Virus record (IMG/VR): IMGVR_UViG_3300039346_000011
Direction: 5' to 3' (one strand)
DNA from: a virus
Lineage: Duplodnaviria > Heunggongvirae > Uroviricota > Caudoviricetes
DNA: 27,612 bases
Shown here: positions 11,857 to 27,612 of the stretch, piece by piece
Layout of the letters: each line of letters starts with the position of its first letter
How positions within the stretch are numbered: the stretch's first letter is position 1
Position numbers and translations under genes: made by a program
The notes under the pieces: model-generated
What the model was told of the DNA's origin: nothing
The model's database searches: none
The model's input: the letters and a program-made list of their open reading frames with translations, nothing else

Positions 11857-12212
11857 TGGCCCGTATCGGGGGAACCTGTTATTTCAAAATTGACGGTCAG
11901 CAGCTATCGCTGACCGGCGGCATTGAGGTGCCCATGAACAGGACGGTCAATGATGACATCATCGGCCTGGACGGTTCAGTGGACCGCAAGGAAACTCACC
12001 GTGCGCCTTATGTTAAAGGGACCTTCAAGGTGCCGAAGAATTTTCCGGTGAGCAAAATCACCTCGTCTGATGAGATGACCATCACTGCCGAGCTGGCGAA
12101 CGGTCAGGTCTATGTACTGTCGTCTGCCTGGCTGCACGGCGAAGCGAACCATAATGCCGAAGAAGGGACGGTTGATCTTGAGTTCCACGGTGAAGAAGGG
12201 GATTACCAGTAA
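11856..12212 (+). CDS. Tail tube protein (Mu gpM-like)
   Basis: 118 aa; TAATG overlap with the sheath stop. Confidence 0.8.
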   Translation: MARIGGTCYFKIDGQQLSLTGGIEVPMNRTVNDDIIGLDGSVDRKETHRAPYVKGTFKVPKNFPVSKITSSDEMTITAELANGQVYVLSSAWLHGEANHNAEEGTVDLEFHGEEGDYQ

Positions 12213-12481
12213 TGAAAGAGCTTGAGTTAAAGAAACCGATTACCGCTCATGGCGAGACACTCTCCGTACTGGAGTTTGATGAGCCCACCGGGAAAGATGT
12301 CCGCGAGCTGGGGTATCCCTACCAGATGAATCAGGATGAGTCCGTCAGACTTCTGGCGCATGTGGTATCGAAATACATTGTGCGGCTGGCGAAAGTGCCG
12401 CAAAACTCTGTCGACCAGATGTCTCCGGCAGACCTGAATGCTGCGGCGTGGCTTGTGGCTGGTTTTTTCCTCCAGGCCTGA
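12212..12481 (+). CDS. Tail assembly chaperone, zero-frame product
   Basis: 89 aa between tube and tape-measure genes; contains the slippery site near its 3' end. Confidence 0.7.
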   Translation: MKELELKKPITAHGETLSVLEFDEPTGKDVRELGYPYQMNQDESVRLLAHVVSKYIVRLAKVPQNSVDQMSPADLNAAAWLVAGFFLQA

Positions 12482-12630
12482 CGGCTGAATACCTCACTGA
12501 TCGCTTCTTTGACTGCGCCAGCTACTGGCGCATTAATCCCTTCGAATTGCTGAATATGCCGATCAGTGAAATTCCCTTGCTGGTCAGTCAGGCAAACAGG
12601 ATAGAGCAGGAGAAACGCACACATGGCTGA
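12212..12630 (+). CDS. Tail assembly chaperone, predicted -1 frameshift fusion product (about 139 aa)
   Basis: Track ORFs 12212..12481 and 12448..12630 overlap in frames related by -1; the -1 ORF has no SD-preceded start and ends overlapping the tape-measure start, as in lambda G/GT. Confidence 0.6.
12463..12469 (+). promoter_or_regulatory. Slippery heptamer T_TTT_TTC for programmed -1 ribosomal frameshift
   Basis: Zero-frame codons GGT TTT TTC give X_XXY_YYZ = T TTT TTC; after the slip the reading continues CCT CCA GGC (PPGLTAEY...), matching the downstream ORF. Confidence 0.6.
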
Positions 12631-14518: not shown

Positions 14519-15847
14519 ATGACGTGGAAAGACAGACTTCAGGACGCGTCATTTCGCGGTGTGCCGTTTAAGGTTGAAGAAGAAAGTGCGGGAACCGGTC
14601 GTCGTGTGGAAACGCACGAATACCCGAACCGCGACAAACCCTATACCGAAGACCTGGGGAAAATCACTTTCCGCCCGTCCATCACAGCTTATGTGGTGGG
14701 AGATGACTGCTTTGACCAGCGCGATCGCCTGATTGACGCGCTGAATAAACCCGGTCCCGGCACGCTTGTCCATCCGACTTACGGTGAGCTGAAAGTCTGT
14801 GTTGACGGGGAAGTTCGGGTCAGCACATCGAAGAGTGAAGGGCGTATTGTCCGCTTTGACCTGAAGTTTGTCGAAGCGGGAGAACTCTCTTACCCCACTT
14901 CAGGTGCGGCGACGGCGCAGACGCTGATGTCATCCTGTTCTGCACTGGATGACTGCATCAGTGACAGCTTCAGTGGTTTCAGTATCGATGGCGTGGCAGA
15001 TTTTGTGCAGAACGACGTCGTCGGTAATGCCAGCACAATGCTTGGGTATGTTTCTGATGCGATGAAAGTGGTGGATTCTGCCGTATCGGATGCCGCCAGG
15101 CTGTTGCAGGGGGATATCTCGGTACTTCTGCCGCCGCCATCGTCAGGCAAAAATTTCGTTGAGCAGGTGCAGAAAATGTGGCGTACCGGGAAACGCCTTT
15201 ATGGTAACGCCAGCGACCTGGTCACCATGATCAAAACGCTTTCCGGTGTCAGCCTCGGCAGCGATCTGCAACCGCGCGGCGTCTGGAAAACGGACAGTAA
15301 AACCACCGCCACGGCGACGCAGCAGCGTAACGTGGTTGCCAGCACCCTTCGTACGACCGCAATCAGCGAAGCGGCGTATGCCGTCACACGATTGCCTGCG
15401 CCCACAACTTCCGCGGTGATGCAGAATGCCACAGTGGGGTAGTCAACAACACCCGCGCAGAGCACCGGCTGGCCTTCTGTCACGCATCCGGCACTGAACA
15501 ATGCACCGGCGGTGAAAAACACGGTTGACCTGCCAACGTGGGAAGAACTGACCGACATTCGCGACACACTGAATACGGCAATTGATAAGGAGTTGTCCCG
15601 TACAACCAGTGATGTGCTGTTTCTGGCGCTGCGCCGGGTGAAAGCAGATCTGAATGCGGATATCAACACGCGCCTTGAACAGTCTGCACGGATCATTCAG
15701 CGCACACCGGATGAGGTTTTACCCGCGCTGGTGCTGGCGGCGACCTGGTTTGATAACGCGGCGCGTGACGCGGACATTATCCGGCGTAATGCCATTACGC
15801 ATCCCGGCTTTGTGCCGGTGATCCCTCTGAAGGTGCCAGTGCAATGA
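14519..15847 (+). pseudogene. DNA circulation protein (Mu gpN-like) interrupted by an in-frame TAG at 15440-15442
   Basis: Track ORFs 14477..15442 and 15512..15847 share one frame; the 69 nt between them have no stop; the downstream part has only a GTG with no SD yet is ATGA-coupled to the next gene. Start taken at 14519 (GGAG SD). Confidence 0.55.
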
Positions 15848-16923
15848 ACGATAACGTCACGCTACGGGTAAATGGCCGGGAGTGGAATGGCTGGACATCG
15901 GTGCGCATCGGTGCCGGTATTGAACGGCTGGCGCGGGATTTCAGTGTGGAGATCACCCGCCAGTGGCCGGGTGATGAGGGTATCACCACGCTTCAGCCGC
16001 GCATTAAAAACGGTTCAAAAGTGGAGGTGCTGATTGGTGATGAGCTGGTGATCACCGGCTGGGTGGAGGCGACGCCCGTTCGTTACGATGCCCGTTCGGT
16101 CAGCACCGGTATTGCCGGACGCAGTCTGACCGCTGACCTGATTGACTGTGCAGCCGAACCGACACAGTTTAACGGACGATCGCTGGTACAGATTGCGCAG
16201 GCGCTTGCTGCGCCTTTCGGCATTGAGGTGGTGAACAACGGTGCGCCGTCGGGTGTTATTCCTGACGTCCAGCCCGATCACGGTGAAACGGTGATTGAGG
16301 TAATCAACAAAATACTCGGTCAGCAGCAGGCACTGGCTTACGACGACCCACACGGCAGGCTGGTGATTGGCGGTATTGGCTCAACGCGGGCACATACTGC
16401 GCTGGTACTCGGGGAAAACATCCTTTCCTGCGATACGGAGAAGAGTATCCGGGAGCGGTTTTCTGTTTACCAGGTGGCGGGGCAGCGTGCTGGAAACGAC
16501 GATGATTTCGGTGAGGCCACCACCAGCGCGCTGCGGGCCCGCACAGAGGACGCATTTATTGCCCGTTACCGTCCGATGTATATCAGGCAGACAGGGCAGG
16601 CTACGGGGGCAGGCTGTATTGCGCGTGCTGACTTTGAAGCCCGACAACGGGCGGCGCGGACGGATGAAACCACCTATGTGGTGCAGGGCTGGCGACAGGG
16701 TAACGGTACGCTGTGGCAGCCCAACCAGCGGGTGATTGTCTTCGATCCGGTCTGTGGTTTCGACAATACCGAACTGCTTGTCTCGGAAGTCACGTTTACT
16801 CAGGACCAGAACGGCACCCTGACGGAAATCCGTGTCGGCCCACCTGATGCTTATCTGCCTGAACCCGAAGCCCCCGGCGCGCGGAAAAAGAAAAAAGCCA
16901 GAGTACAGGAGGACCCGTTCTGA
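15844..16923 (+). CDS. Baseplate hub / tail protein (Mu gpP-like)
   Basis: 359 aa; position after the DNA-circulation gene in Mu-like order; translationally coupled. Confidence 0.65.
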   Translation: MNDNVTLRVNGREWNGWTSVRIGAGIERLARDFSVEITRQWPGDEGITTLQPRIKNGSKVEVLIGDELVITGWVEATPVRYDARSVSTGIAGRSLTADLIDCAAEPTQFNGRSLVQIAQALAAPFGIEVVNNGAPSGVIPDVQPDHGETVIEVINKILGQQQALAYDDPHGRLVIGGIGSTRAHTALVLGENILSCDTEKSIRERFSVYQVAGQRAGNDDDFGEATTSALRARTEDAFIARYRPMYIRQTGQATGAGCIARADFEARQRAARTDETTYVVQGWRQGNGTLWQPNQRVIVFDPVCGFDNTELLVSEVTFTQDQNGTLTEIRVGPPDAYLPEPEAPGARKKKKARVQEDPF

Positions 16924-17471
16924 TGAGTACGATTGAAGCCATGCAGCGACAACTCCTCGGCCTGATTGGGCGGGCAGTGGTGAAAAGCATCAGTGCCGCC
17001 ACGAAATGTCAGACCGTGGATGTGTCCCTGATTGCCGGTGAACCCAAAGCCGGGGTTGAACATCTTGAACCCTACGGTTTTACCGCAAGGGCAAACAGCG
17101 GTGCGGAAGCGGTGGTGTTGTTTCCGGATGGTGACCGTTCTCATGCGGTGGTTGTTACGGTGTCGGACCGGCGCTACCGCCTGAAAGGGCTGCAGACGGG
17201 TGAGGTGGCGGTCTATGACGATCAGGGGCAGTCTGTGACGCTGACCCGGGAGGGGATCGTGGTGGACGGTGCAGGTAAAACGATCACGTTTCGCAATGCA
17301 CCTGAAGCACGTTTTGAAATGGACCTGGAAGTGACAGGACAGGTGAAAGACCTGTGCGACTCCAGCGGCACCACCATGTCAGCGATGCGGCTTGCCTATA
17401 ACGGGCATCGTCACAGAGAGAACGGTCAGGGCAGTAACACCGACAAACCTGATAAAGCGATGGAGGCATGA
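16923..17471 (+). CDS. Baseplate spike / assembly protein V-like (Mu gp45-like)
   Basis: 182 aa; ATGA coupling to flanking genes; position consistent. Confidence 0.6.
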   Translation: MSTIEAMQRQLLGLIGRAVVKSISAATKCQTVDVSLIAGEPKAGVEHLEPYGFTARANSGAEAVVLFPDGDRSHAVVVTVSDRRYRLKGLQTGEVAVYDDQGQSVTLTREGIVVDGAGKTITFRNAPEARFEMDLEVTGQVKDLCDSSGTTMSAMRLAYNGHRHRENGQGSNTDKPDKAMEA

Positions 17472-17897
17472 TGGAACTGTGGCTGACGGTGAACGGTAAA
17501 CGCACCTGCGCCAGCGCACCGCTGGATCCGCTGACCCGCGCCGTGGTGATTTCCCTGTTTACCTGGCGGCGGGCGGAGCCTGATGACAACGCCGACGTCC
17601 CGATGGGATGGTGGGGGGGATACCTGGCCTGCGGTACAGAATGACCGTTACGGCTCCCGACTGTGGCTGCTTCAGCGCAGCAAACTGACCAATCAGCTGG
17701 TGCAGACGGTAAGGGGGTATATCCGCGAATGCCTGCAATGGATGATTGATGACGGCGTGGTGTCCCGTATTGATCTGGATATCCTCCGCACCGGGATTAA
17801 TGAACTGGGTAACAGTATCACTCTCTGGCGTCGTGACGGACCGGTAATGATTTCTTTAGATGATCTGTGGAGTGCGATAACGCATGGCGGACAGTGA
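17468..17897 (+). pseudogene. gp46-like baseplate protein gene split by a frameshift at a G7 homopolymer
   Basis: ATG at 17468 overlaps the previous stop; that frame stops at 17642-17644. Track ORF 17583..17897 is in the +1 frame. One G fewer in the run at 17613-17619 would give a continuous ORF of about 142 aa. Confidence 0.55.
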
Positions 17898-18942
17898 ATT
17901 TCAGCGCCCGACGCTGGCAGAAAATATCAGTATGCTCCGTAACGATTTATTCGCCAGGCTGGACGTCAGCGACACGCTCCGGCGCATGGATGAAGACGTG
18001 CGGGCAAAGGTGTATGCGGCGGCGCTGCATACGGTTTACGGGTACATCGATTATCTGGCAATGAACATGCTGCCTGACCTGTGCGATGAGTCCTGGCTGG
18101 CGCGACATGCTGCGATGAAACGGTGTCCGCGCAAGGGGGCCACGACTGCCAGCGGGTATATGCGCTGGGAAGGCGTCAGCGATGGCCTGAAGGTGACCGC
18201 CGGGAGTGTTATTCAGCGCGATGACCTGATTCAGTACACGGCAACTGCCGATGCAACCAGCGCCGGTGGTGTCCTGCGCGTGCCGATCGCCTGCTCAAGT
18301 GCAGGCGCGGTCGGTAACGCTGACGACGGTACGTCATTAATCCTGGTCACGCCGGTTAATGGTCTGCCGTCTTCCGGCGTGGCAGACACTCTGACAGGTG
18401 GATTTGATACTGAAGAGCTGGAAACGTGGCGCGCCCGCGTCATTGAGCGGTATTACTGGACGCCTCAGGGCGGGGCTGACGGGGACTATGTTGTCTGGGC
18501 TAAAGAATTGCCCGGCATTACCCGCGCATGGGCATACCGTCACTGGATGGGAACGGGGACTGTCGGTGTGATGATTGCCAGCAGTGACCTGATTAATCCC
18601 ATTCCGGAAGAATCAACGGAAACGGCGGCAAGACAACATATCGGGCCACTGGCCCCGGTGGCAGGCTCTGATTTGTATGTGTTCAGGCCGGTGGCGCATA
18701 CGGTGGATTTTCATATCCGTGTGACGCCGGATACACCGGAAATACGGGCTGCCATCACCGCGGAGTTGCGTTCGTTCCTGCTGCGTGATGGTTATCCGCA
18801 GGGAGAACTGAAGGTGTCGCGTATCAGTGAAGCGATTTCCGGTGCGAACGGGGAATACAGCCATCAATTGCTTGCACCGGCGGAAAATATCTCCATTGCA
18901 AAAAATGAACTGGCGGTTCTGGGGACGATTTCATGGGCGTGA
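17884..18942 (+). CDS. Baseplate J-like protein (Mu gp47-like)
   Basis: 352 aa; position and size typical of baseplate wedge J proteins in Mu-like tail modules. Confidence 0.75.
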
Positions 18943-19520: not shown

Positions 19521-20264
19521 ATGCATCGTATAGACACGAAAACCGCGCAGAAGGATAAGTTCGGCGCGGGTAAGAACGGTTTTACCCGTGGTAACCCCCA
19601 GACAGGCACGCCTGCCACCGATCTGGATGATGACTACTTTGACATGTTGCAGGAAGAACTCTGCAGCGTGGTGGAGGCATCCGGTGCCAGTCTGGAGAAG
19701 GCGCGGCACGACCAGCTGCTTACCGCGCTTCGTGCGCTGCTGTTAAGCCGCAAGAATCCGTTTAGCGATATCAAATCGGACGGCACGGTGAAAACGGCTC
19801 TCGAAAACCTTGGTTTGGGAGAAGGCTCTGCATTACCTGTTGGTGTGCCTGTTCCATGGCCTTCAGCCACACCGCCAACAGGCTGGCTGAAATGCAACGG
19901 TGCGGCTTTTTCTGCTGAAGAATACCCGGAACTGGCAAAGGCTTATCCGACAAATAAATTGCCTGATTTACGTGGTGAGTTTATTCGTGGCTGGGATGAT
20001 GGGCGCGGCGTTGATTCAAGGCGTGCGGTGCTGTCAACACAAGAGCCAACTGTAGGTACTTTTTATGTGGAGCTAGCTATCATCTCGGGAACTTTGAGCG
20101 GCTCAGGTGCTAAATTTACCGATTCAGTAGGGATTGGATCAACCAGTAGTAACATTACCGTTAGCAACGGTAATGACCAGTCCGTGTCGGGTACAGTGGC
20201 CGTTAACCCCGTCGATACCCGTCCACGCAACATTGCATTTAACTATATCGTGAGAGCAGCATAA
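19521..20264 (+). CDS. Tail fibre protein with tail-collar-type C-terminus; constant N-terminal part plus currently joined variable C-terminal part
   Basis: 247 aa; [19 protein letters not shown] and C-terminal [15 protein letters not shown] motifs; the left crossover site lies inside at about codon 93. Confidence 0.8.
19798..19823. repeat. Left crossover site of the invertible segment (gix/hix/pix-like)
   Basis: CTCTCGAAAACCTTGGTTTGGGAGAA; its last 14 bp are the exact reverse complement of the first 14 bp of the right site at 21725..21750, with weaker similarity across the remainder; encodes LENLGLGEG in the fibre. Confidence 0.7.
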
Positions 20265-20866
20265 TGGATAAAGCAATATTAAATAGTGGACTTGTTGCTA
20301 CAAAGGCAGGGGATATTACCGTTTATAACTATGATGGTGAAACTCGGGAATATATTTCCACTTCAAGTGAATATCTTGCCGTTGGTGTTGGTATCCCGGC
20401 ATATTCCTGTCTGGATGCACCAGGTATACATAAGGCGGGTTATGCTATCTGTCGTTCTGTGAATTTAAATTCATGGGAATATGTGCCAGACCATCGCGGT
20501 GAAATCGTCTATAACACCGAAACGGGAGAATCAAAACAAATCACAGCACCGGGTGATTACCCCGAAAATACAACCACTATTGCCCCATTAACGCCATACG
20601 ATAAATGGGATGGTGAGAAATGGGTGACCGATACTGAGGCACAGCATAGCGCCGCAGTAGACGCGGCAGAAGCACAGCGTCAGTCACTGATTGATGCTGC
20701 AATGGCTTCCATCGGTCTGATTCAGCTGAAATTACAGGCCGGACGGAAGCTGATGCAGGCAGAAACAACCCGGCTTAACGCTGTGCTGGATTACATTGAC
20801 GCGGTGACGGCAACAAATACCAGCACAGCGCCGGATGTCATCTGGCCTGAACTGCCGGAGGCGTAG
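20264..20866 (+). CDS. Tail fibre assembly protein (Tfa)
   Basis: 200 aa; TAATG overlap with the fibre gene; C-terminal ...DVIWPELPEA typical of Tfa chaperones. Confidence 0.8.
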   Translation: MDKAILNSGLVATKAGDITVYNYDGETREYISTSSEYLAVGVGIPAYSCLDAPGIHKAGYAICRSVNLNSWEYVPDHRGEIVYNTETGESKQITAPGDYPENTTTIAPLTPYDKWDGEKWVTDTEAQHSAAVDAAEAQRQSLIDAAMASIGLIQLKLQAGRKLMQAETTRLNAVLDYIDAVTATNTSTAPDVIWPELPEA

Positions 20867-21281
20867 GCCATTCAATATCTGGCGCACAGGAAGTATCGAC
20901 CAGTTCCAGTGCGTCCAGATAATCCAGCCACGAATTATATTGCGCCAGTTCCTCGCCTTTCAGACGACCAATAGCAGCTTTGCCAGGCCACTGATGGGTA
21001 TTGATGTAGGTATTGACTTCTGAAACCAAAGATATTTTTTTCATTTCAGCCGTCAACACCTCATCCTCTTTTGAAGGGGGTGGGGAATTAATCCATACTG
21101 GCCGTCCTGAACTGTCAGCGCCAATTTCTTTCCCTTCTGGATGCAGACCAAGAAATTGCTCATATGTTTCTCTGGTAATTTCAATAACATCATCAGGAAG
21201 CGTTCCCGCATCCTCATATTCTGGAAACAATTCTTGCAGATAAAAACTTTTACTTCCGGGTGAAAAGAATACTGAGTTCAT
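20838..21281 (-). CDS. Alternative tail fibre assembly protein (Tfa'), inverted orientation
   Basis: 147 aa on the minus strand, convergent and 3'-overlapping with Tfa; C-terminal ...DIEWPTPPAVQAR Tfa-type. Confidence 0.75.
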   Translation of the reverse strand: MNSVFFSPGSKSFYLQELFPEYEDAGTLPDDVIEITRETYEQFLGLHPEGKEIGADSSGRPVWINSPPPSKEDEVLTAEMKKISLVSEVNTYINTHQWPGKAAIGRLKGEELAQYNSWLDYLDALELVDTSCAPDIEWPTPPAVQAR

Positions 21282-21283
21282 TA

Positions 21284-21750
21284 TTACCGTCCAATGATTA
21301 ACGCTGAGACGCTGGTATCTGAAGGAAAGGCTGCATTCAGTGGTTTGTCGACTTTGAACACAATCGTATTATTCCCCCTGACAGCGGCAAAAGAACAAAC
21401 CGCCGTCGCGTATGAACCTGTAATATTACTGGATACACCACCATAAGCTGTTGTTGATACCAGAGGGATAACGCCCAGCACCTTATTAGGAAATACAAAG
21501 GGCAATGTGGCTGTGGCAATATAAGACTTATTAGAACCTGTGATGGCATAAGCATTATCAGTCATTCCATTCATCGCCACTGGGCCGCTTATACTTACAG
21601 TAACCATCTGAATGATTAGCCCGTCAGGTTGACGAATCACAAAATTTCCATTGCCACCAGTAACCGTCCAGAAAGACATATCAGGGATTTGGTTTTCCCC
21701 GTTGCCCACATTCCGTTTTGCCGCTTCTCCCAAACCAACGTTTATGAAAA
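21284..21750 (-). CDS. Alternative tail-fibre C-terminal module, silent in this orientation
   Basis: Minus-strand frame open from the right crossover site to 21284 (track ORF 21284..21778); encodes ...GLGEAAKRNVGNG... at the site, paralleling LGLGEGSA in the expressed fibre. Confidence 0.6.
21725..21750. repeat. Right crossover site of the invertible segment
   Basis: TTCTCCCAAACCAACGTTTATGAAAA; resembles the enteric Hin/Gin/Pin site consensus as I recall it and is the inverted partner of 19798..19823. Confidence 0.7.
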
Positions 21751-21804
21751 TGCAGAAATAACGAGCAAATGGCATCATTCCTGCTTTTGTCAGGGAGATC
21801 TACC

Positions 21805-21933
21805 ATGCTTATTGGCTATGTACGTGTGTCAACAAATGACCAGAACACAGATCTACAACGTAATGCGCTGAACTGTGCAGGATGCGAGCTGATTTTTGAA
21901 GACAAGATAAGCGGTACAAAGTCCGAGACCTAG
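21805..21933 (+). pseudogene. pin: Serine DNA invertase (Pin/Gin/Hin family), 42-codon N-terminal stub
   Basis: MLIGYVRVSTNDQNTDLQRNALNCAGCELIFEDKISGTKSET then TAG; matches the Pin/Hin N-terminus including the catalytic-Ser context (YVRVST), but full invertases are about 185-190 aa. Confidence 0.8.
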
Positions 21934-22028: not shown

Positions 22029-23918
22029 TTAATCGTGTTTTGGCCATACTTTCAATGCAATTTCCCCCAACTTTTTACCCCGCTCCAGGATTTCATCCTC
22101 ATCCCATTTATCCTTAACTATAAGTGGAATGTTCAGTCGTAGATTGGTGTGGACGATGAGAGCATCACGTTTTTTCAGAAATACAGCATTCTGAACAGAA
22201 CGGTTTACGCTAAGGTTAAGCAAAGTTAGATTTCCCAAAGTAGATATCGCTTGTTGCCGTTTCCTTACCAGTAGCTGTTCAGGGGTAAGATCGGTTCCAG
22301 ACAGAACAATTTGGTTCAATACCGTAGCATCTGAATTTGTCACCATACGACCATTTTCGAGAGGCCAACAGGAATACCAACTTTGAGGCATAAGATGATC
22401 GATATCGAGATTAGAAAGATTTGGAACATCAGGCTTTTCTGTCTTTACTTGGCGACAAAGTTCTCTTTCAAGTTCCGTTAACATTGAGCGCATTTTCGGT
22501 GCGTCGAGCCTGCCAGGATAAAGTGGAGCATTGATGCAAGCGTTGAGAAATTCTGAGTCACCAGGCCAACGTGAGGCTTCGCCATTTAAGTTATTGAGGA
22601 TATTACGTAACTCAACACTGGAAATTTCCGTTTTAGCCAAGTGCCGCAATACATTCATAAATACATTGTTGTAATTCTTTGGCGTCAGGCCACATACGGC
22701 TCTTCGTACTACGTAGGAGACAAGATCATTATACATGGCTGCTTTCTCATCATCAGCGATGTTAGCTATCGAAATGAACAAAGCAAGCGGATAAAGTGTC
22801 GTCACATCATAGTCTGCGATGCGATATCCAAAGTGTGAGATGGGGGTTGTGCCAAAACCATCAACCAATTCTTTATATTGTGATGCATATTGTTTGAGGC
22901 GCTTTACTTGCAGATCTGCTCGTTGTGAAGACAAGTCCTTACTTACATAATCACGATACTCATTGTAAAGGCGAGACAGATCAATTTCACGTTGCCTTTC
23001 TGATTGCAATGTCGCATGTACTAGCCACTCCATGCGTGGTTTATTAATACGTCCACGGCGTTGTTTTTCCGACCAGTATTTATCTTCAAAGCTCTTCCAC
23101 TCATTTTCATATAATTCAATAGCATTAATATTTTCATGCTCAGCGCACATAAAGATATAGTTGCGAATAAGATCCGTAGCATGAAGTTCCGCCCCTCGCC
23201 CATTTAATGTTTCAAAAATTATTTGGGCATCATCTTCAGCTTCGAGAAATATGCTTACCAGTTTCAGATCTGTTAAGACAGCCTCAATTAGAGCTACAGC
23301 ATTTTCTTGTGGTGAGTGGTTTTCTATTTTAATCCATTTTATAAAGGCTTCAGTAAAAAAACATAATGCTTCTAGTGATGGCGGGTGATTAAAATGCTTA
23401 CGCAACGTACCATGCTGCGTGAAACTATCAGAGAATACGTCCCGGAGATCGTCAATATTTTCAACATTAAAACTTTGAATAAAATGAGTTTGATCCCGAA
23501 AAGTTGGCCACAGTTTGAAGCGTTCTACTTCTTTATTTCGCATTGTGTCTTCGTTTGAGTTTTTCAGGCAAGGCGAAATGAGAGCCTCTAAGCTGGAAAG
23601 ATCCGTAGCACGTAATGCTAATCGGATGGATGCCAGAACATATTGAAGAGTGGTCAATCGTTGCTGACCATCAATAATATGTATGGAATCTACACCTAAT
23701 AATCCTTTTTTTGATTGAGGTTCCAGTACAACCGCACCAAGGAAATGGGGAGTTGGTTTTGTACCCGAGAGCCGGGATTGTACTTTCTCTAGGATATCCT
23801 CCAGTAGAGCTGACCACTGGTCTTGCTGAGTCCATACATAGGCACGTTGATAGAATGGAACACAGTATTGTCGGCGGTCTTGAAAAAGTTGTTGGACAGT
23901 TAGCGTCTCGGATTTCAT
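22029..23918 (-). CDS. DUF262/DUF1524 two-domain nuclease (GmrSD/BrxU/SspE-like type IV restriction-type protein)
   Basis: Track ORF 22029..23978; likely start is the ATG at 23918 (MKSETLTVQQLF...). N-terminal FYQRAYVW and IIDGQQRLTT (DGQQR) motifs; C-terminal DIDHLMPQSW His-Me-finger-like motif; low GC. Confidence 0.8.
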   Translation of the reverse strand: MKSETLTVQQLFQDRRQYCVPFYQRAYVWTQQDQWSALLEDILEKVQSRLSGTKPTPHFLGAVVLEPQSKKGLLGVDSIHIIDGQQRLTTLQYVLASIRLALRATDLSSLEALISPCLKNSNEDTMRNKEVERFKLWPTFRDQTHFIQSFNVENIDDLRDVFSDSFTQHGTLRKHFNHPPSLEALCFFTEAFIKWIKIENHSPQENAVALIEAVLTDLKLVSIFLEAEDDAQIIFETLNGRGAELHATDLIRNYIFMCAEHENINAIELYENEWKSFEDKYWSEKQRRGRINKPRMEWLVHATLQSERQREIDLSRLYNEYRDYVSKDLSSQRADLQVKRLKQYASQYKELVDGFGTTPISHFGYRIADYDVTTLYPLALFISIANIADDEKAAMYNDLVSYVVRRAVCGLTPKNYNNVFMNVLRHLAKTEISSVELRNILNNLNGEASRWPGDSEFLNACINAPLYPGRLDAPKMRSMLTELERELCRQVKTEKPDVPNLSNLDIDHLMPQSWYSCWPLENGRMVTNSDATVLNQIVLSGTDLTPEQLLVRKRQQAISTLGNLTLLNLSVNRSVQNAVFLKKRDALIVHTNLRLNIPLIVKDKWDEDEILERGKKLGEIALKVWPKHD

Positions 23919-24303
23919 GGTATACCTGTAAGCGACATTGTACAAAAGTGAGGAGTTAATCTGATTTAGAACAATCATTTTATTTTGCTATGATACAACG
24001 TATTTGTTACCGATTAAGTAAAAAACGCGTCTGAACGCTGACGTTTTAGGGCTTTACTGGTTATTCTTTCTTATCTCTTCATCATCCCATCGGCATCCTG
24101 TCGAGGTTGTTGACTTGTTGTTATTTATTTTGTCTAGGCGCTGTTTAATTATTATTGATAGAATTGATGGTGAGAGGTGATTGAAACCGTAGGCACGTCG
24201 TTTGCAAGGACGTGCTACGACTGGCTGGTGAACTTCCGATAGTGCGAGTATTGAATGATTTCCTACGTGCTAACTAGTGAACAAACAACTCTTCAGTAGA
24301 CTC

Positions 24304-24521
24304 TCAGGTATCATTCAGAGTTTCCTGAACGAAAGTTTTAGCTCAATCTTTATCTGCAGTATGTCTAACTGAAAAACTATCGTTGCTGGTGGCTTTTACG
24401 ATCATCTCCACATCGTCATAACGCTTGCCAATGTGTTGGGTTAATTCTTCCTTTAACGCGTCCACAGCGCCGTTTGGCATTTGGTCATTTTGTCTTTGGC
24501 TATGGAGATCTCAATACGCAT
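24304..24521 (-). pseudogene. dinI-like gene remnant with a frameshift and an in-frame TGA
   Basis: Minus strand from ATG at 24521 encodes [14 protein letters not shown], then after a 1-nt shift [37 protein letters not shown]..., then TGA at 24345..24343, then ...FVQETLNDT; colinear with DinI as I recall it. Confidence 0.5.
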
Positions 24522-24534
24522 AACACTTCTTTTG

Positions 24535-24582
24535 TACTGCGTTTGTAGACAGTATTATTCTTATCTGTGTAAATAAACAGTA
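24535..24582. promoter_or_regulatory. Two tandem LexA (SOS) box candidates upstream of the dinI-like remnant
   Basis: TACTGCGTTTGTAGACAGTA (24535-24554; CTGC-N8-ACAG) and ATCTGTGTAAATAAACAGTA (24563-24582; perfect CTGT-N8-ACAG). Confidence 0.5.
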
Positions 24583-24722
24583 TCAAGACTTCGTTTTAGC
24601 TGCATAAGAAAAAAGAGATGGATACATTCGGAAAGATTTTGATGGTGGTAGGCTAAGTGAATAGCCTAAAGGTGTTTTACCCCAATTATTCCCCGGTATT
24701 TCTCCGCATAAAAAACAATCAT

Positions 24723-24747
24723 AAAAAAACCAGCCATAATAGGCTGG
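24723..24747 (-). terminator. Rho-independent terminator immediately 3' of the partial tRNA
   Basis: Plus strand AAAAAAA-CCAGCC-ATAATA-GGCTGG; on the minus strand this is hairpin plus U7, 15 nt after the tRNA CCA end. Confidence 0.6.
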
Positions 24748-24762
24748 TTCTTAAGGGATTTT

Positions 24763-24815
24763 TGGTCGGCACGAGAGGATTTGAACCTCCGCCCCCCGAC
24801 ACCCCATGATGGCGA
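24763..24815 (-). tRNA. Partial tRNA-Pro-like gene (3' portion only: anticodon arm, T-arm, acceptor 3' strand, CCA); probable att remnant
   Basis: Minus strand ...CCATCATGGGGTGTCGGGGGGCGGAGGTTCAAATCCTCTCGTGCCGACCA; 3' ~45 nt closely match enterobacterial tRNA-Pro(GGG) as I recall it; no 5' acceptor strand or D-arm follows. Confidence 0.55.
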
Positions 24816-24918
24816 GCTACGATCTTAAGGGCTGTTATGTGCCAGAAACAGAGATTTTTATATTCCTCACTCTGGAAATCATAATGCTAACTAGTAGGGA
24901 TTATAAGTTGTCAATTGA

Positions 24919-25743
<825 letters not shown>

Positions 25744-25797
25744 TTTCGGAATGGAACTGGATTTCATATTGTGGTCAATTTTCGCACATGATGAGAG

Positions 25798-25822
25798 AGA
25801 GCCCGCGATAGTTGGCTCTTTT
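25798..25822 (+). terminator. Rho-independent terminator after the GIY-YIG gene
   Basis: AGAGCC-CGCGATAGTT-GGCTCT followed by TTTT. Confidence 0.45.
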
Positions 25823-25953
25823 GTGCAAAGTCTGACCAATATTTATTCCCCTCACTGGACGTTACACTCAGACTATCCACTGCTGACATGCCAGTGATTT
25901 AAAAGGAATGCTGCTGATTTAAATAGCGAAAACTTCACTAAAGAGGATGTAAA

Positions 25954-26247
25954 ATGACACTACCCAAGTTCAGGAATGACCTACAAGTTGAAGCTAATTA
26001 CTCTATCAATCAAGCCCGTGAAATGGTTGGGAAAACGGTGAAATCTGTCCAGATTGGTTTTCAGAAAACTGGAGTACAGGTTCATCAGACTGAAATGCTA
26101 ATCATCACGTTTACAGATGACACTCAACTTGCCATCTCAACAGGTTCAAACGTTGTAAACATAACGTCGTTAATTGGGCGTGGTGGCAGTTGCGAGCTTA
26201 AGCCTGCGGATTTTCACGTAGATTTTGATTTGACCTGGCAAAGATGA
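25954..26247 (+). CDS. Hypothetical 97-aa protein
   Basis: AGAGGA SD 7 nt upstream of the ATG; no recognisable motif; followed by a GC-rich inverted repeat. Confidence 0.5.
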   Translation: MTLPKFRNDLQVEANYSINQAREMVGKTVKSVQIGFQKTGVQVHQTEMLIITFTDDTQLAISTGSNVVNITSLIGRGGSCELKPADFHVDFDLTWQR

Positions 26248-26254
26248 CAAATCC

Positions 26255-26299
26255 GGCCGTGCCAGCGGCCTTTTTCATGCTCGTCCTGCTGGCACGGCC
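26255..26299. terminator. GC-rich inverted repeat between convergent genes (putative bidirectional terminator)
   Basis: GGCCGTGCCAGC ... GCTGGCACGGCC perfect 12-bp inverted repeat with 21-nt spacer containing TTTTT. Confidence 0.4.
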
Positions 26300-26334
26300 G
26301 CAAACCTAATCCTGTAAGGTGACACTTAAGCGTG

Positions 26335-27123
26335 TCAGAACTGCGCAATAACAACCTTCACTTTTCCTTCCGCGTCTTTAGATTCCAGATCGGTTTTCAC
26401 GCCCAAAGGATTATTTATGTAGCAATCCGGGTCATATACAAACAAGATCAACGTATCGCAGTCTTGGTGAGCGCGGTAGCGCGCCATATCAATAAGCAAC
26501 TCTCCACCAACTTTACCCGCTCCCAGAGATTCACGGGTTTTCTTCACCTCTATCACAATTTTCTCTTTTTTCAAAAGAAAGTCCTGTCTTGAGGCCGCGC
26601 CCGCAAAGCTGGGGGTATACTCTTCCGCCCTAATATCATTAAAATGAAGCGTCAGCAGTGCATAAATCAAATCCTGTACGTCATACTCATCATTAACTTC
26701 AAGCGGCGCACGGCCGTTGTACCGCCTCTTTAACTGGCGAACAAAGGTCGGAAACCTGTTAAGAATATTAAGTACGAGGCTCAGCGGCGAACCTTCTTGA
26801 GGAGTATTAGTACTGACAGCAGAGTGCGCAAGATCATCTCTCGCCGCATCAAACAACGGTTTATAACTTTTGATCAGTGTATTGTAATTAGAAGACCACC
26901 TGCTGTTTACAGTATTGAAGTCATTGTAATAATCAGACTCTTTTCCGTAGCTGTCCTCTATTAACTTTTTCACTCTGGCGATCCAGTTTTTATATTTACC
27001 AGAATCAACATAGGTTTCCATAGTGTGAGTGAGAACGTTCTGCGCAGTATATTTTGTGGAAATGAGCGCATCGTAATCTTTCTCAAGCGCCCTAAATCTT
27101 TCTTCCAGTTGTAGATTTGTCAT
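26335..27123 (-). CDS. Hypothetical protein with C-terminal PD-(D/E)xK-like nuclease motif
   Basis: 262 aa; GGAAGG SD; N-terminal helical region; C-terminal ...EYDVQDLIYALL...RQDFLLKKEKIVIEVKK... has E / D / E-x-K spacing reminiscent of the restriction-endonuclease fold. Low GC. Confidence 0.6.
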   Translation of the reverse strand: MTNLQLEERFRALEKDYDALISTKYTAQNVLTHTMETYVDSGKYKNWIARVKKLIEDSYGKESDYYNDFNTVNSRWSSNYNTLIKSYKPLFDAARDDLAHSAVSTNTPQEGSPLSLVLNILNRFPTFVRQLKRRYNGRAPLEVNDEYDVQDLIYALLTLHFNDIRAEEYTPSFAGAASRQDFLLKKEKIVIEVKKTRESLGAGKVGGELLIDMARYRAHQDCDTLILFVYDPDCYINNPLGVKTDLESKDAEGKVKVVIAQF

Positions 27124-27495: not shown

Positions 27496-27612
27496 TGAAC
27501 CGCCCCGGGTTTCCTGGAGAGTGTTTTATCTGTGAACTCAGGCTGCCAGATCATCGTTTCCGATGGAAGCATAATAAGCTTTTTCTGCTTCTGCCGGAGG
27601 AGTATGGCCCAG
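27496..27612 (-). mobile_element. IS3-family insertion sequence (IS629/IS1203-like), terminal 117 bp: inverted-repeat end plus 3' end of transposase orfB; element continues past window end
   Basis: Plus strand TGAACCGCCCCGGGTTTCCTGGAGA from 27496 shares TGAACCGCCCCGG-N3-TCCTGGAGA with the terminus at 94; same orientation as the left copy. Confidence 0.75.
27538..27612 (-). CDS. IS3-family transposase OrfB, C-terminal fragment (truncated by window edge)
   Basis: Minus-strand frame from the window edge encodes ...LGHTPPAEAEKAYYASIGNDDLAA then stop (plus TCA at 27538-27540), just inside the inverted repeat. Confidence 0.6.
   Translation of the reverse strand: MGHTPPAEAEKAYYASIGNDDLAA

What the first reader, a model, noticed from the sequence alone, without database searches (positions are those of the whole stretch)
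17468..17897. G7 homopolymer splits the gp46-like baseplate gene
Reading from the ATG at 17468 the frame terminates at 17642; the rest of the gene continues in the +1 frame from the G run at 17613-17619. Removing one G restores a single ~142-aa ORF. This could be a sequencing error, a decay mutation or a slipped-strand (phase-variable) site.
Basis: seen in the sequence. Interest (0 to 1): 0.45.

Follow-up and report, generated by a model that had tools for sequence, protein, structure and literature searches.

The report
Frameshifted baseplate gene in decaying prophage
One extra G in a run of six splits an essential tail-baseplate gene of an already damaged E. coli prophage; it is a real, inherited and recurrent slippage mutation of an ordinary kind, not a regulatory device.

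Summary
A G7 run at 17613-17619 splits a Mu gp46-type baseplate wedge gene into a 58-aa ORF (17468-17644) and a +1-frame remainder ending at 17897. Deleting one G gives a protein identical to RefSeq WP_000424731.1.

The window is an SfV/SfI-like prophage next to ssrA in ExPEC/APEC-type E. coli. Among RefSeq complete E. coli genomes, 754 records carry exact G6, 7 carry G5 and none carries G7.

G7 is not a one-off error. The identical frameshift product is recorded on 29 contigs from NCBI, ENA and Logan. These include clean assemblies of the same prophage with different IS insertions, and two prophages only 97% identical. So the insertion is heritable and arose several times.

The run is a by-product of the codons for the conserved GWWGD motif (TGG TGG GGG GAT).

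The prophage is already decayed. An IS3-family element truncates the holin gene, and a nonsense codon at 15440 splits the baseplate hub gene.

Best reading: replication slippage at a modest G:C hotspot, tolerated under relaxed selection. Sequencing error, adaptive phase variation and programmed recoding are all unlikely. Ordinary; low interest.

The parts
17613..17619 (+). G7 homopolymer. The ancestral and majority state is G6, formed by codons TGG-TGG-GGG-GAT of the conserved GWWGD motif.
   Evidence: sequence; only indel against ATCC 11775; 754 G6, 7 G5, 0 G7 records; motif aligned with PDB 9ki1_A gp46
17468..17644 (+). ORF A: the 5' part of the gp46-type baseplate wedge gene (58 aa, or 57 aa from the ATG at 17471). 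The last 8 residues (GYLACGTE) are out of frame, and the premature TGA lies at 17642-17644.
17619..17897 (+). The 3' part of the gp46-type gene in the +1 frame (GP46 profile positions 31-100). The mechanical ORF is listed from an internal ATG at 17583.
16923..17471 (+). Upstream neighbour, a Mu gp45-type baseplate assembly protein V. Its stop overlaps the gp46 start (ATGATG).
17884..18942 (+). Downstream neighbour, a baseplate J/gp47-type gene. Its start overlaps the normal gp46 stop by 14 nt, so any translational coupling would be lost after the premature stop (inference).
15440..15442 (+). Second disabling lesion: CAG to TAG nonsense codon that splits the 442-aa gp43-like 'DNA circularization'/baseplate hub gene (14519-15847) into 307-aa and 111-aa pieces.
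   Evidence: PGAP calls this gene a pseudogene with an internal stop in SCU-116 and FY26, which carry the same base at 15440
1..91 (-). End of an IS3-family insertion sequence. Its junction at 91/92 lies inside the holin gene, so only the holin 3' part (92-324) remains.
   Evidence: window 1-95 matches the end of the IS3-family transposase element in SCU-116; holin CDS L001 3928-4233, junction at L001 4001
27496..27612 (+). End of a second IS3-family copy at the right end of the window. The contig breaks at IS repeats.

Best explanation
A real, heritable +1 insertion (G6 to G7), made by replication strand slippage, has inactivated the gp46-type baseplate wedge gene. This gene is the homologue of Mu Mup46, T4 gp25, P2 W and T6SS TssE. 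It lies in an SfV/SfI-like prophage (lambdoid head, Mu-like contractile tail) beside ssrA in an ExPEC/APEC-type E. coli. The run exists because the conserved GWWGD motif happens to be encoded TGG TGG GGG GAT. In its G6 state it ties as the longest G:C run in the element, which makes it a modest indel hotspot. The prophage in this lineage is already non-functional (holin truncated by an IS, nonsense codon in the baseplate hub gene), so the frameshift is tolerated and inherited. The product is a 57/58-aa N-terminal stub. Without the wedge protein no baseplate or contractile tail should assemble. Shown: the lesion, its uniqueness against intact relatives, its presence in several independent assemblies and backgrounds, and the other lesions. 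Inferred: slippage as the mutational mechanism, relaxed selection, and loss of tail assembly.
For: (1) The split falls exactly at the run, and the repaired protein is identical to WP_000424731.1. (2) It is the only indel in 27.4 kb against ATCC 11775. All 28 other runs of 6 nt or more are unchanged. (3) The exact 57-aa frameshift product is on 29 contigs, indexed in 46 blocks, from NCBI, ENA and Logan. (4) Loci L003/L134, L005/L137, L135 and L136 carry G7 on the same prophage (99.99% identical) with no other indel. L135 is a SPAdes contig at 29x coverage with an IS at a different site from the window, so it is a different isolate. (5) L004 and L006 carry G7 in prophages only 97.2-97.6% identical, with SNPs starting 160-250 nt from the run. 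Within the near-identical lineage all four combinations of G6/G7 with 15440 C/T occur. G7 therefore arose repeatedly. (6) The opposite slip, G5, occurs in 7 complete genomes, 2 IMG/VR contigs, one of two copies in Shigella flexneri SFBU0723, and 82 contigs of the protein collection. No G8 or G9 products are recorded. (7) PGAP annotates the G5 alleles as 'frameshifted' pseudogenes. (8) Other decay is present in the window: the IS junction inside holin and TAG at 15440. (9) In E. coli, indel rates rise exponentially with homopolymer length, and runs of 5 nt or more are hotspots (PMC8510543).
Against: No reads were available, so the run length in the source sample itself is not directly verified. 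No RefSeq complete genome carries G7 (0 of 1174 places). IMG/VR and JGI metagenome scans also found none. All G7 evidence therefore comes from draft, Logan or GenBank assemblies whose sequencing platforms I could not check. Short-patch recombination cannot be excluded as the source of G7 in L004 and L006, because the 200-300 nt around the run are identical to the window. Relaxed selection is inferred, not measured.
Confidence: 0.8

Rival explanations
1. Sequencing or assembly error: the source genome really has G6 and the extra G is a homopolymer miscall in this record.
For: Homopolymers are the classic site of 454, Ion Torrent and long-read errors. G7 is absent from all 1174 places in RefSeq complete genomes. 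Some length variants at this run do sit in visibly noisy assemblies, for example the G5 in L018, which has 34 single-base indels over 8.7 kb of aligned sequence. A Dcm site (CCTGG) lies 5 nt 3' of the run; from my own knowledge, methylated sites can disturb nanopore base calling.
Against: The window has no other indel across 27.4 kb and 29 runs of 6 nt or more. The same G7 on the same haplotype (15440T) is found in other assemblies that differ by an SNP and by IS positions, including a 29x SPAdes contig. A systematic error would also show up among the mostly long-read or hybrid complete genomes, and it does not.
Confidence: 0.1
2. Adaptive phase variation: the G run is a contingency tract that switches the tail gene on and off at high frequency.
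For: Both G5 and G7 alleles recur in several backgrounds. The four-gamete pattern within a nearly clonal prophage means the run changed at least twice while only a handful of SNPs accumulated.
Against: The tract is short (6-7 nt). In-frame G6 holds in 754 of 761 exact-flank complete-genome records. The run is explained by the codons of a conserved protein motif, and synonymous interruptions (GGGGAG, GGGGCG) exist without consequence. The gene is an internal structural baseplate part, not a surface or restriction-modification gene. E. coli is not known to use homopolymer contingency loci (my own knowledge). The G7 samples were found by a search for that allele, which inflates apparent recurrence.
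Confidence: 0.05
3. Programmed or leaky recoding: a +1 ribosomal shift of tRNA-Gly on GGG-GGG-A, or RNA polymerase slippage on the G run, restores some full-length gp46, so the gene still works.
For: Re-pairing GGG to GGG one base downstream is possible, and the next 0-frame codon, GGA, is fairly rare (sequence; my own knowledge). Low-level leakiness of frameshifts in monotonous runs is known in general.
Against: The two-frame arrangement is not conserved: nearly all homologues are one ORF. There is no stop or hungry-codon plus stimulator arrangement as in prfB. The window's real programmed site (T TTT TTC in the tail chaperone gene at 12462-12468) is conserved in 35 of 36 related loci, which shows what conservation should look like. 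A baseplate wedge protein is needed stoichiometrically, 6 per baseplate by analogy with TssE (PMC6300606).
Confidence: 0.03

Closest known systems
Phage Mu gp46 (Mup46) / Pfam GP46 PF07409 / PHROG 180 baseplate wedge subunit (related to T4 gp25, P2 gpW and T6SS TssE)
   Same: Both halves match the family profile. The repaired protein matches PDB 9ki1_A 'Baseplate protein gp46' (E = 2.9e-14), including the GWWGD motif. The gene order gp44-gp45-gp46-gp47-gp48 is the Mu order (PMC6300606).
   Different: Here the gene is interrupted by a +1 frameshift inside the conserved motif, so only a 57/58-aa stub is encoded in frame.
Shigella/E. coli serotype-converting phages SfV, SfI, SfII and SfIV and their prophage relatives at ssrA in ExPEC/APEC strains (UTI89, S88, IHE3034, ATCC 11775)
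   Same: 98.0-99.1% DNA identity over gp45-gp47 to the phages, and 99.97% over 27.4 kb to the ATCC 11775 prophage.
   Different: Those copies have an intact 141-aa gp46 gene (G6). The window also carries an IS-truncated holin and a nonsense codon in the hub gene.
Frameshifted pseudogenes at homopolymer runs in cryptic or defective prophages (for example the G5 alleles of this same gene in E. coli B7A and ET201)
   Same: Same gene and same run, with a single-base length change. PGAP labels them 'frameshifted'.
   Different: The direction of the slip differs (+1 here, -1 there). G7 is rarer than G5 (29 against 82 contigs for the exact products).
Simple-sequence contingency loci (poly-G/C phase variation in Neisseria, Haemophilus, Campylobacter)
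   Same: A G run inside a coding sequence whose length changes shift the frame, and length variants recur.
   Different: The tract is shorter, the in-frame allele is near-fixed, the gene class is different, and no evidence of high-frequency switching was found. See the membership test.

Membership tests
Mu gp46 / Pfam GP46 (PF07409) baseplate wedge protein | Sequence match to the family profile above the curated cut-off | tested here: met
   ORF A scores 32 bits and ORF B 72.6 bits against a cut-off of 28.6. They cover profile positions 1-36 and 31-100. The repaired protein matches PHROG 180 at E = 2.7e-53.
Mu gp46 / Pfam GP46 (PF07409) baseplate wedge protein | Position in a Mu-type baseplate gene cluster (gp44, gp45, gp46, gp47, gp48) | tested here: met
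   The neighbours match Gp44-like/GpP, Phage_Mu_Gp45, Baseplate_J and Phage_Mu_Gp48.
Mu gp46 / Pfam GP46 (PF07409) baseplate wedge protein | Similarity to the solved gp46 structure, including the conserved GWWGD motif | tested here: met
   PDB 9ki1_A at E = 2.9e-14, with GWWGD aligned. This is a sequence comparison only; no structure was predicted.
Mu gp46 / Pfam GP46 (PF07409) baseplate wedge protein | One uninterrupted reading frame of about 140 aa | tested here: not met
   The frame is broken at 17613-17619. The locus is a member by descent but a pseudogene in this window.
Frameshift pseudogene in a degraded prophage | Close relatives carry an intact orthologue and the lesion is a derived minority state | tested here: met
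   754 exact-G6 records and 0 G7 among complete E. coli genomes. All 105 non-noisy IMG/VR loci are one G shorter than the window.
Frameshift pseudogene in a degraded prophage | Other disabling lesions in the same element | tested here: met
   The IS3-family junction lies inside holin. A TAG at 15440 interrupts the hub gene. Relatives also carry a truncated recombinase and a frameshifted DinI-like gene.
Frameshift pseudogene in a degraded prophage | The lesion is real in the DNA of the organism, not a read artefact | tested here: inconclusive
   Indirectly supported by several independent clean assemblies that share the haplotype. Reads were not available.
Simple-sequence-repeat contingency (phase-variable) locus | On and off tract lengths both common among closely related genomes | tested here: not met
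   Exact-flank records: 754 G6, 7 G5, 0 G7.
Simple-sequence-repeat contingency (phase-variable) locus | Tract maintained for its own sake rather than forced by protein coding | tested here: not met
   The run equals the codons for W-W-G-D of a conserved motif. The synonymous variants GGGGAG and GGGGCG occur.
Simple-sequence-repeat contingency (phase-variable) locus | High-frequency reversible switching within a clonal population | not testable with these tools
   This needs reads or culture experiments. The four-gamete pattern shows recurrence but says nothing about rate.
Programmed ribosomal frameshift / transcriptional slippage gene | Two-frame architecture and shift site conserved across homologues | tested here: not met
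   Homologues are single ORFs. By contrast, the chaperone T TTT TTC site is conserved.
Programmed ribosomal frameshift / transcriptional slippage gene | Full-length trans-frame product made | not testable with these tools
   This requires a reporter assay or proteomics.

The most novel reading that the evidence does not exclude
The G6 run inside the GWWGD codons of SfV-like prophages could be a selected mutational 'fuse'. On this reading, recurrent, reversible G5/G6/G7 slippage switches off tail assembly in a fraction of lysogens. That would make induction abortive, or free head and lysis functions for the host, and so give a prophage-domestication switch in E. coli. This species is not known to use homopolymer contingency loci.
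Probability: 0.04. Interest if true: 0.55.

Novelty: already known. Interest (0 to 1): 0.12.

Why it matters
It matters mainly for annotation. The two short ORFs should be annotated as one frameshifted GP46-family pseudogene, not as two genes, and the prophage should be scored as defective. The case also shows how to separate a private mutation from an assembly error without reads: look up the exact frameshift product across independent assemblies and test whether it travels with linked variants. The modest biological point is that a conserved Trp-Trp-Gly-Asp motif creates a built-in G:C slippage hotspot. That hotspot repeatedly knocks out this baseplate gene in E. coli and Shigella prophages, in about 1% of copies in complete genomes.

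Tried and rejected
1. Exact G7 and G8 pattern scans of IMG/VR found nothing, and an exact G7 scan of JGI metagenomes also found nothing. G7 relatives came only from the exact-protein look-ups.

2. A variable-gap scan of the GTDB representatives gave one hit of G7 length, L130 in an archaeal MAG. It is a chance match (CCGAGAT) with no similarity to the window.

3. Nanopore systematic error at the adjacent Dcm site (CCTGG) was considered. I rejected it as a general cause because no complete genome shows G7 and because G7 occurs in short-read-style assemblies.

4. I tallied indels at every homopolymer across 119 IMG/VR relatives to see whether this run is exceptionally hot. The sample is too small. 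Only scattered -1 events appear at other runs, and there were no length variants at this run among the non-noisy loci.

5. A functional split gene was rejected. ORF B has only a weak internal start context, and the arrangement is polyphyletic and rare.

Full report
**Observation**

The sequence at 17613-17619 is seven consecutive G.

- The ORF that starts at the ATG at 17468 (a second ATG follows at 17471) stops at TGA 17642-17644 after 58 codons.
- The +1 frame is open through the run and ends at 17895-17897.
- The 58-aa piece matches positions 1-36 of Pfam GP46 (PF07409, 32 bits).
- The +1-frame piece matches positions 31-100 (72.6 bits; cut-off 28.6). One domain is therefore split exactly at the run.
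- Deleting one G gives a 142-aa ORF. From the second ATG, the resulting 141 residues are identical to RefSeq WP_000424731.1, 'phage GP46 family protein'.

A G7 run as such is not statistically unusual in 27.6 kb at 27% G. The split of the domain is what makes the observation real.

**What the region is**

The neighbouring genes match Mu gp44/GpP-like, gp45, Baseplate_J (gp47) and gp48 families.

- The window is 99.97% identical over 27.4 kb to a prophage of E. coli ATCC 11775. That prophage has a lambdoid lysis and head module and a Mu-like contractile tail, and it lies beside ssrA/smpB.
- Very close copies occur in UTI89, S88, IHE3034, APEC O18 and many others.
- The free phages SfI, SfII, SfIV and SfV are 98.0-99.1% identical over this segment.
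- The repaired protein matches the solved 'Baseplate protein gp46' chain 9ki1_A (E = 2.9e-14) and PHROG 180, 'baseplate wedge subunit'.
- Mup46 is regarded as the counterpart of T4 gp25, P2 gpW and T6SS TssE (PMC6300606).

In the alignment with 9ki1_A the run falls inside the conserved motif GWWGD. Here that motif is encoded TGG TGG GGG GAT. The G6 run is therefore a by-product of the protein motif plus the choice of GGG for glycine. Relatives with GGA or GGC at that codon (GGGGAG, GGGGCG) exist.

**How unusual G7 is**

Against ATCC 11775 the window differs by six substitutions and a single indel, the extra G. All 28 other runs of 6 nt or more are unchanged.

| Collection | G5 | G6 | G7 | Other |
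|---|---|---|---|---|
| RefSeq complete E. coli genomes, exact-flank records | 7 | 754 | 0 (of 1174 places) | – |

PGAP labels the G5 alleles 'frameshifted'. One of the two IMG/VR G5 contigs is a visibly noisy assembly. JGI metagenomes gave no G7 hit. Among the GTDB representatives, Shigella flexneri SFBU0723 has one G6 copy and one G5 copy.

**Real or artefact**

The exact-sequence look-ups settle most of this. The 57-aa frameshift product is indexed in 46 blocks of the collection, from NCBI, ENA and Logan.

- L003/L134 (a 3.78-Mb contig of GCA_964055085.1, plus 16-19 similar places) and L136 carry G7 on the same prophage with C at 15440.
- L005/L137 (SRR13708363) and L135 (a SPAdes contig of ERZ1744275 at 29x coverage, plus 3 similar places) carry G7 with T at 15440, exactly like the window.
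- None of these has any other indel against the window.
- L135 has an IS inside the LEM-3-like gene at about window position 25421, where the window is intact. The window also has a private SNP at 8860. These are therefore different isolates sharing one inherited haplotype.

This makes a random miscall in the window's record unlikely; I put it at about 0.1. I could not inspect reads or sequencing platforms, and that is the main remaining weakness.

**Recurrence**

L004 and L006 carry G7 in prophages only 97.2% and 97.6% identical to the window. Their SNPs begin 160-250 nt from the run and their gene content differs.

Within the near-identical lineage all four combinations of run length and base at 15440 occur:

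| Run | Base at 15440 | Found in |
|---|---|---|
| G6 | C | ATCC 11775 |
| G6 | T | SCU-116, FY26 |
| G7 | C | L003, L136 |
| G7 | T | window, L005, L135 |

So the run changed length at least twice there, or reverted, or was exchanged by recombination. Together with the G5 alleles in unrelated strains, this identifies the run as a slippage hotspot. That fits the exponential dependence of E. coli indel rates on homopolymer length (PMC8510543). The G7 loci were found by searching for G7 in a very large collection, so their number says nothing about rate.

**State of the prophage**

The window begins and ends in IS3-family sequence (1-91 and 27496-27612).

- The left junction corresponds to position 4001 of locus L001, inside the holin CDS (3928-4233). 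The holin gene has therefore lost its first 73 nt.
- In the close relative SCU-116 the same IS type replaces the whole early region.
- A C-to-T change at 15440 turns CAG into TAG. It splits the 442-aa gp43-like 'DNA circularization'/baseplate hub gene into 307-aa and 111-aa pieces. PGAP marks that gene as a pseudogene with an internal stop in SCU-116 and FY26.

The gp46 frameshift is thus one of several lesions in an element that can no longer complete a lytic cycle. This explains why it persists. In L003, L004 and L006 the surrounding tail genes look intact, so in those backgrounds it may be the first disabling hit.

**Mechanism and consequence (inference)**

- Slippage of the nascent strand on the G6 template adds one G.
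- Translation then ends at 17642-17644, leaving a stub that lacks residues 50-141 of the wedge protein.
- By homology with gp25, TssE and Mup46, no baseplate wedge should form and hence no sheath-initiating platform.
- The gp47 start (17884) normally overlaps the gp46 stop. Termination 240 nt upstream may also reduce gp47 translation if the two genes are translationally coupled.

**Alternatives**

- **Adaptive phase variation** is not supported. The tract is short. The in-frame allele holds in about 99% of complete-genome copies. The run is dictated by a protein motif. The gene is an internal structural part.
- **Programmed recoding** is not supported, because the two-frame layout is not conserved. 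The window has a genuine programmed site for comparison. The tail assembly chaperone gene (12212-12481) carries the canonical heptamer T TTT TTC at 12462-12468, followed by a -1-frame extension to 12630 that abuts the tape-measure gene. That T6 run is unchanged in 35 of 36 related loci.

**Verdict**

The feature is real, correctly described, and ordinary. It is a recurrent homopolymer frameshift that makes a pseudogene of the gp46-type baseplate wedge gene in a decaying SfV-like prophage. Novelty: already known kind. Interest: low.

Noticed in passing
window 12212-12630 (heptamer at 12462-12468): The tail assembly chaperone gene (89 aa) ends just after a canonical -1 slippery heptamer, T TTT TTC. 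The -1 frame continues for about 55 codons to 12630, abutting the tape-measure start at 12623. This looks like the conserved programmed frameshift of tail chaperones (lambda G/GT, P2 E/E+E' type). The T6 run is unchanged in 35 of 36 related loci.
   Followed up: partly
window 1-91 and 27496-27612: Both ends of the window are ends of IS3-family insertion sequences (IS629/IS1203-like from memory). The contig evidently broke at IS repeats. The left copy truncates the holin gene at 92. Relatives carry IS copies at different sites (SCU-116, FY26, L135).
   Followed up: partly
window 15440-15442: A CAG-to-TAG nonsense codon splits the gp43-like DNA-circularization/baseplate hub gene (14519-15847). 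It is shared with SCU-116, FY26, L005 and L135 but absent from ATCC 11775, L003 and L136. With the G6/G7 state it gives all four allele combinations.
   Followed up: yes
window about 20264-21930: The tail-fibre region has a tfaE-type assembly gene, an oppositely oriented second tail-fibre assembly gene with a small ORF, and a 42-aa remnant of a resolvase-type recombinase. This looks like a dead Gin/Cin-type invertible host-range segment (annotation of L001; Pfam list).
   Followed up: no
window about 22029-27123: Cargo genes at the prophage end look like defence or nuclease genes. They are a GmrSD-type DUF262 protein (minus strand, about 22029-23918), a LEM-3-like GIY-YIG protein (about 24970-25743), a DpnII/MboI-family hit (about 26335-27123), and a DinI-like gene that PGAP calls frameshifted in the relatives examined.
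   Followed up: no
L131 and L129 (Shigella flexneri SFBU0723, CP182557.1); H116-H122: The opposite slip, G5, occurs in one of two copies of this gene in a single Shigella flexneri chromosome. It also occurs in seven complete E. coli genomes of unrelated origin (B7A, APEC20/16, ET201, Z1322HEC0009, A1.S1.18, A1.S1.126, Nord58). The exact G5 product is on 82 contigs, against 29 for G7.
   Followed up: partly
window 17625-17629: A Dcm methylation site (CCTGG) lies 5 nt downstream of the G run. From my own knowledge, this could bias nanopore base calling of the run. No sign of such a systematic effect was seen in the complete genomes.
   Followed up: partly
L018 (IMGVR_UViG_2695420343_000006): This IMG/VR contig has 34 single-base indels, 33 of them deletions, over 8.7 kb aligned to the window, so it is a low-quality assembly. 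Its G5 state should not be counted as biological.
   Followed up: yes
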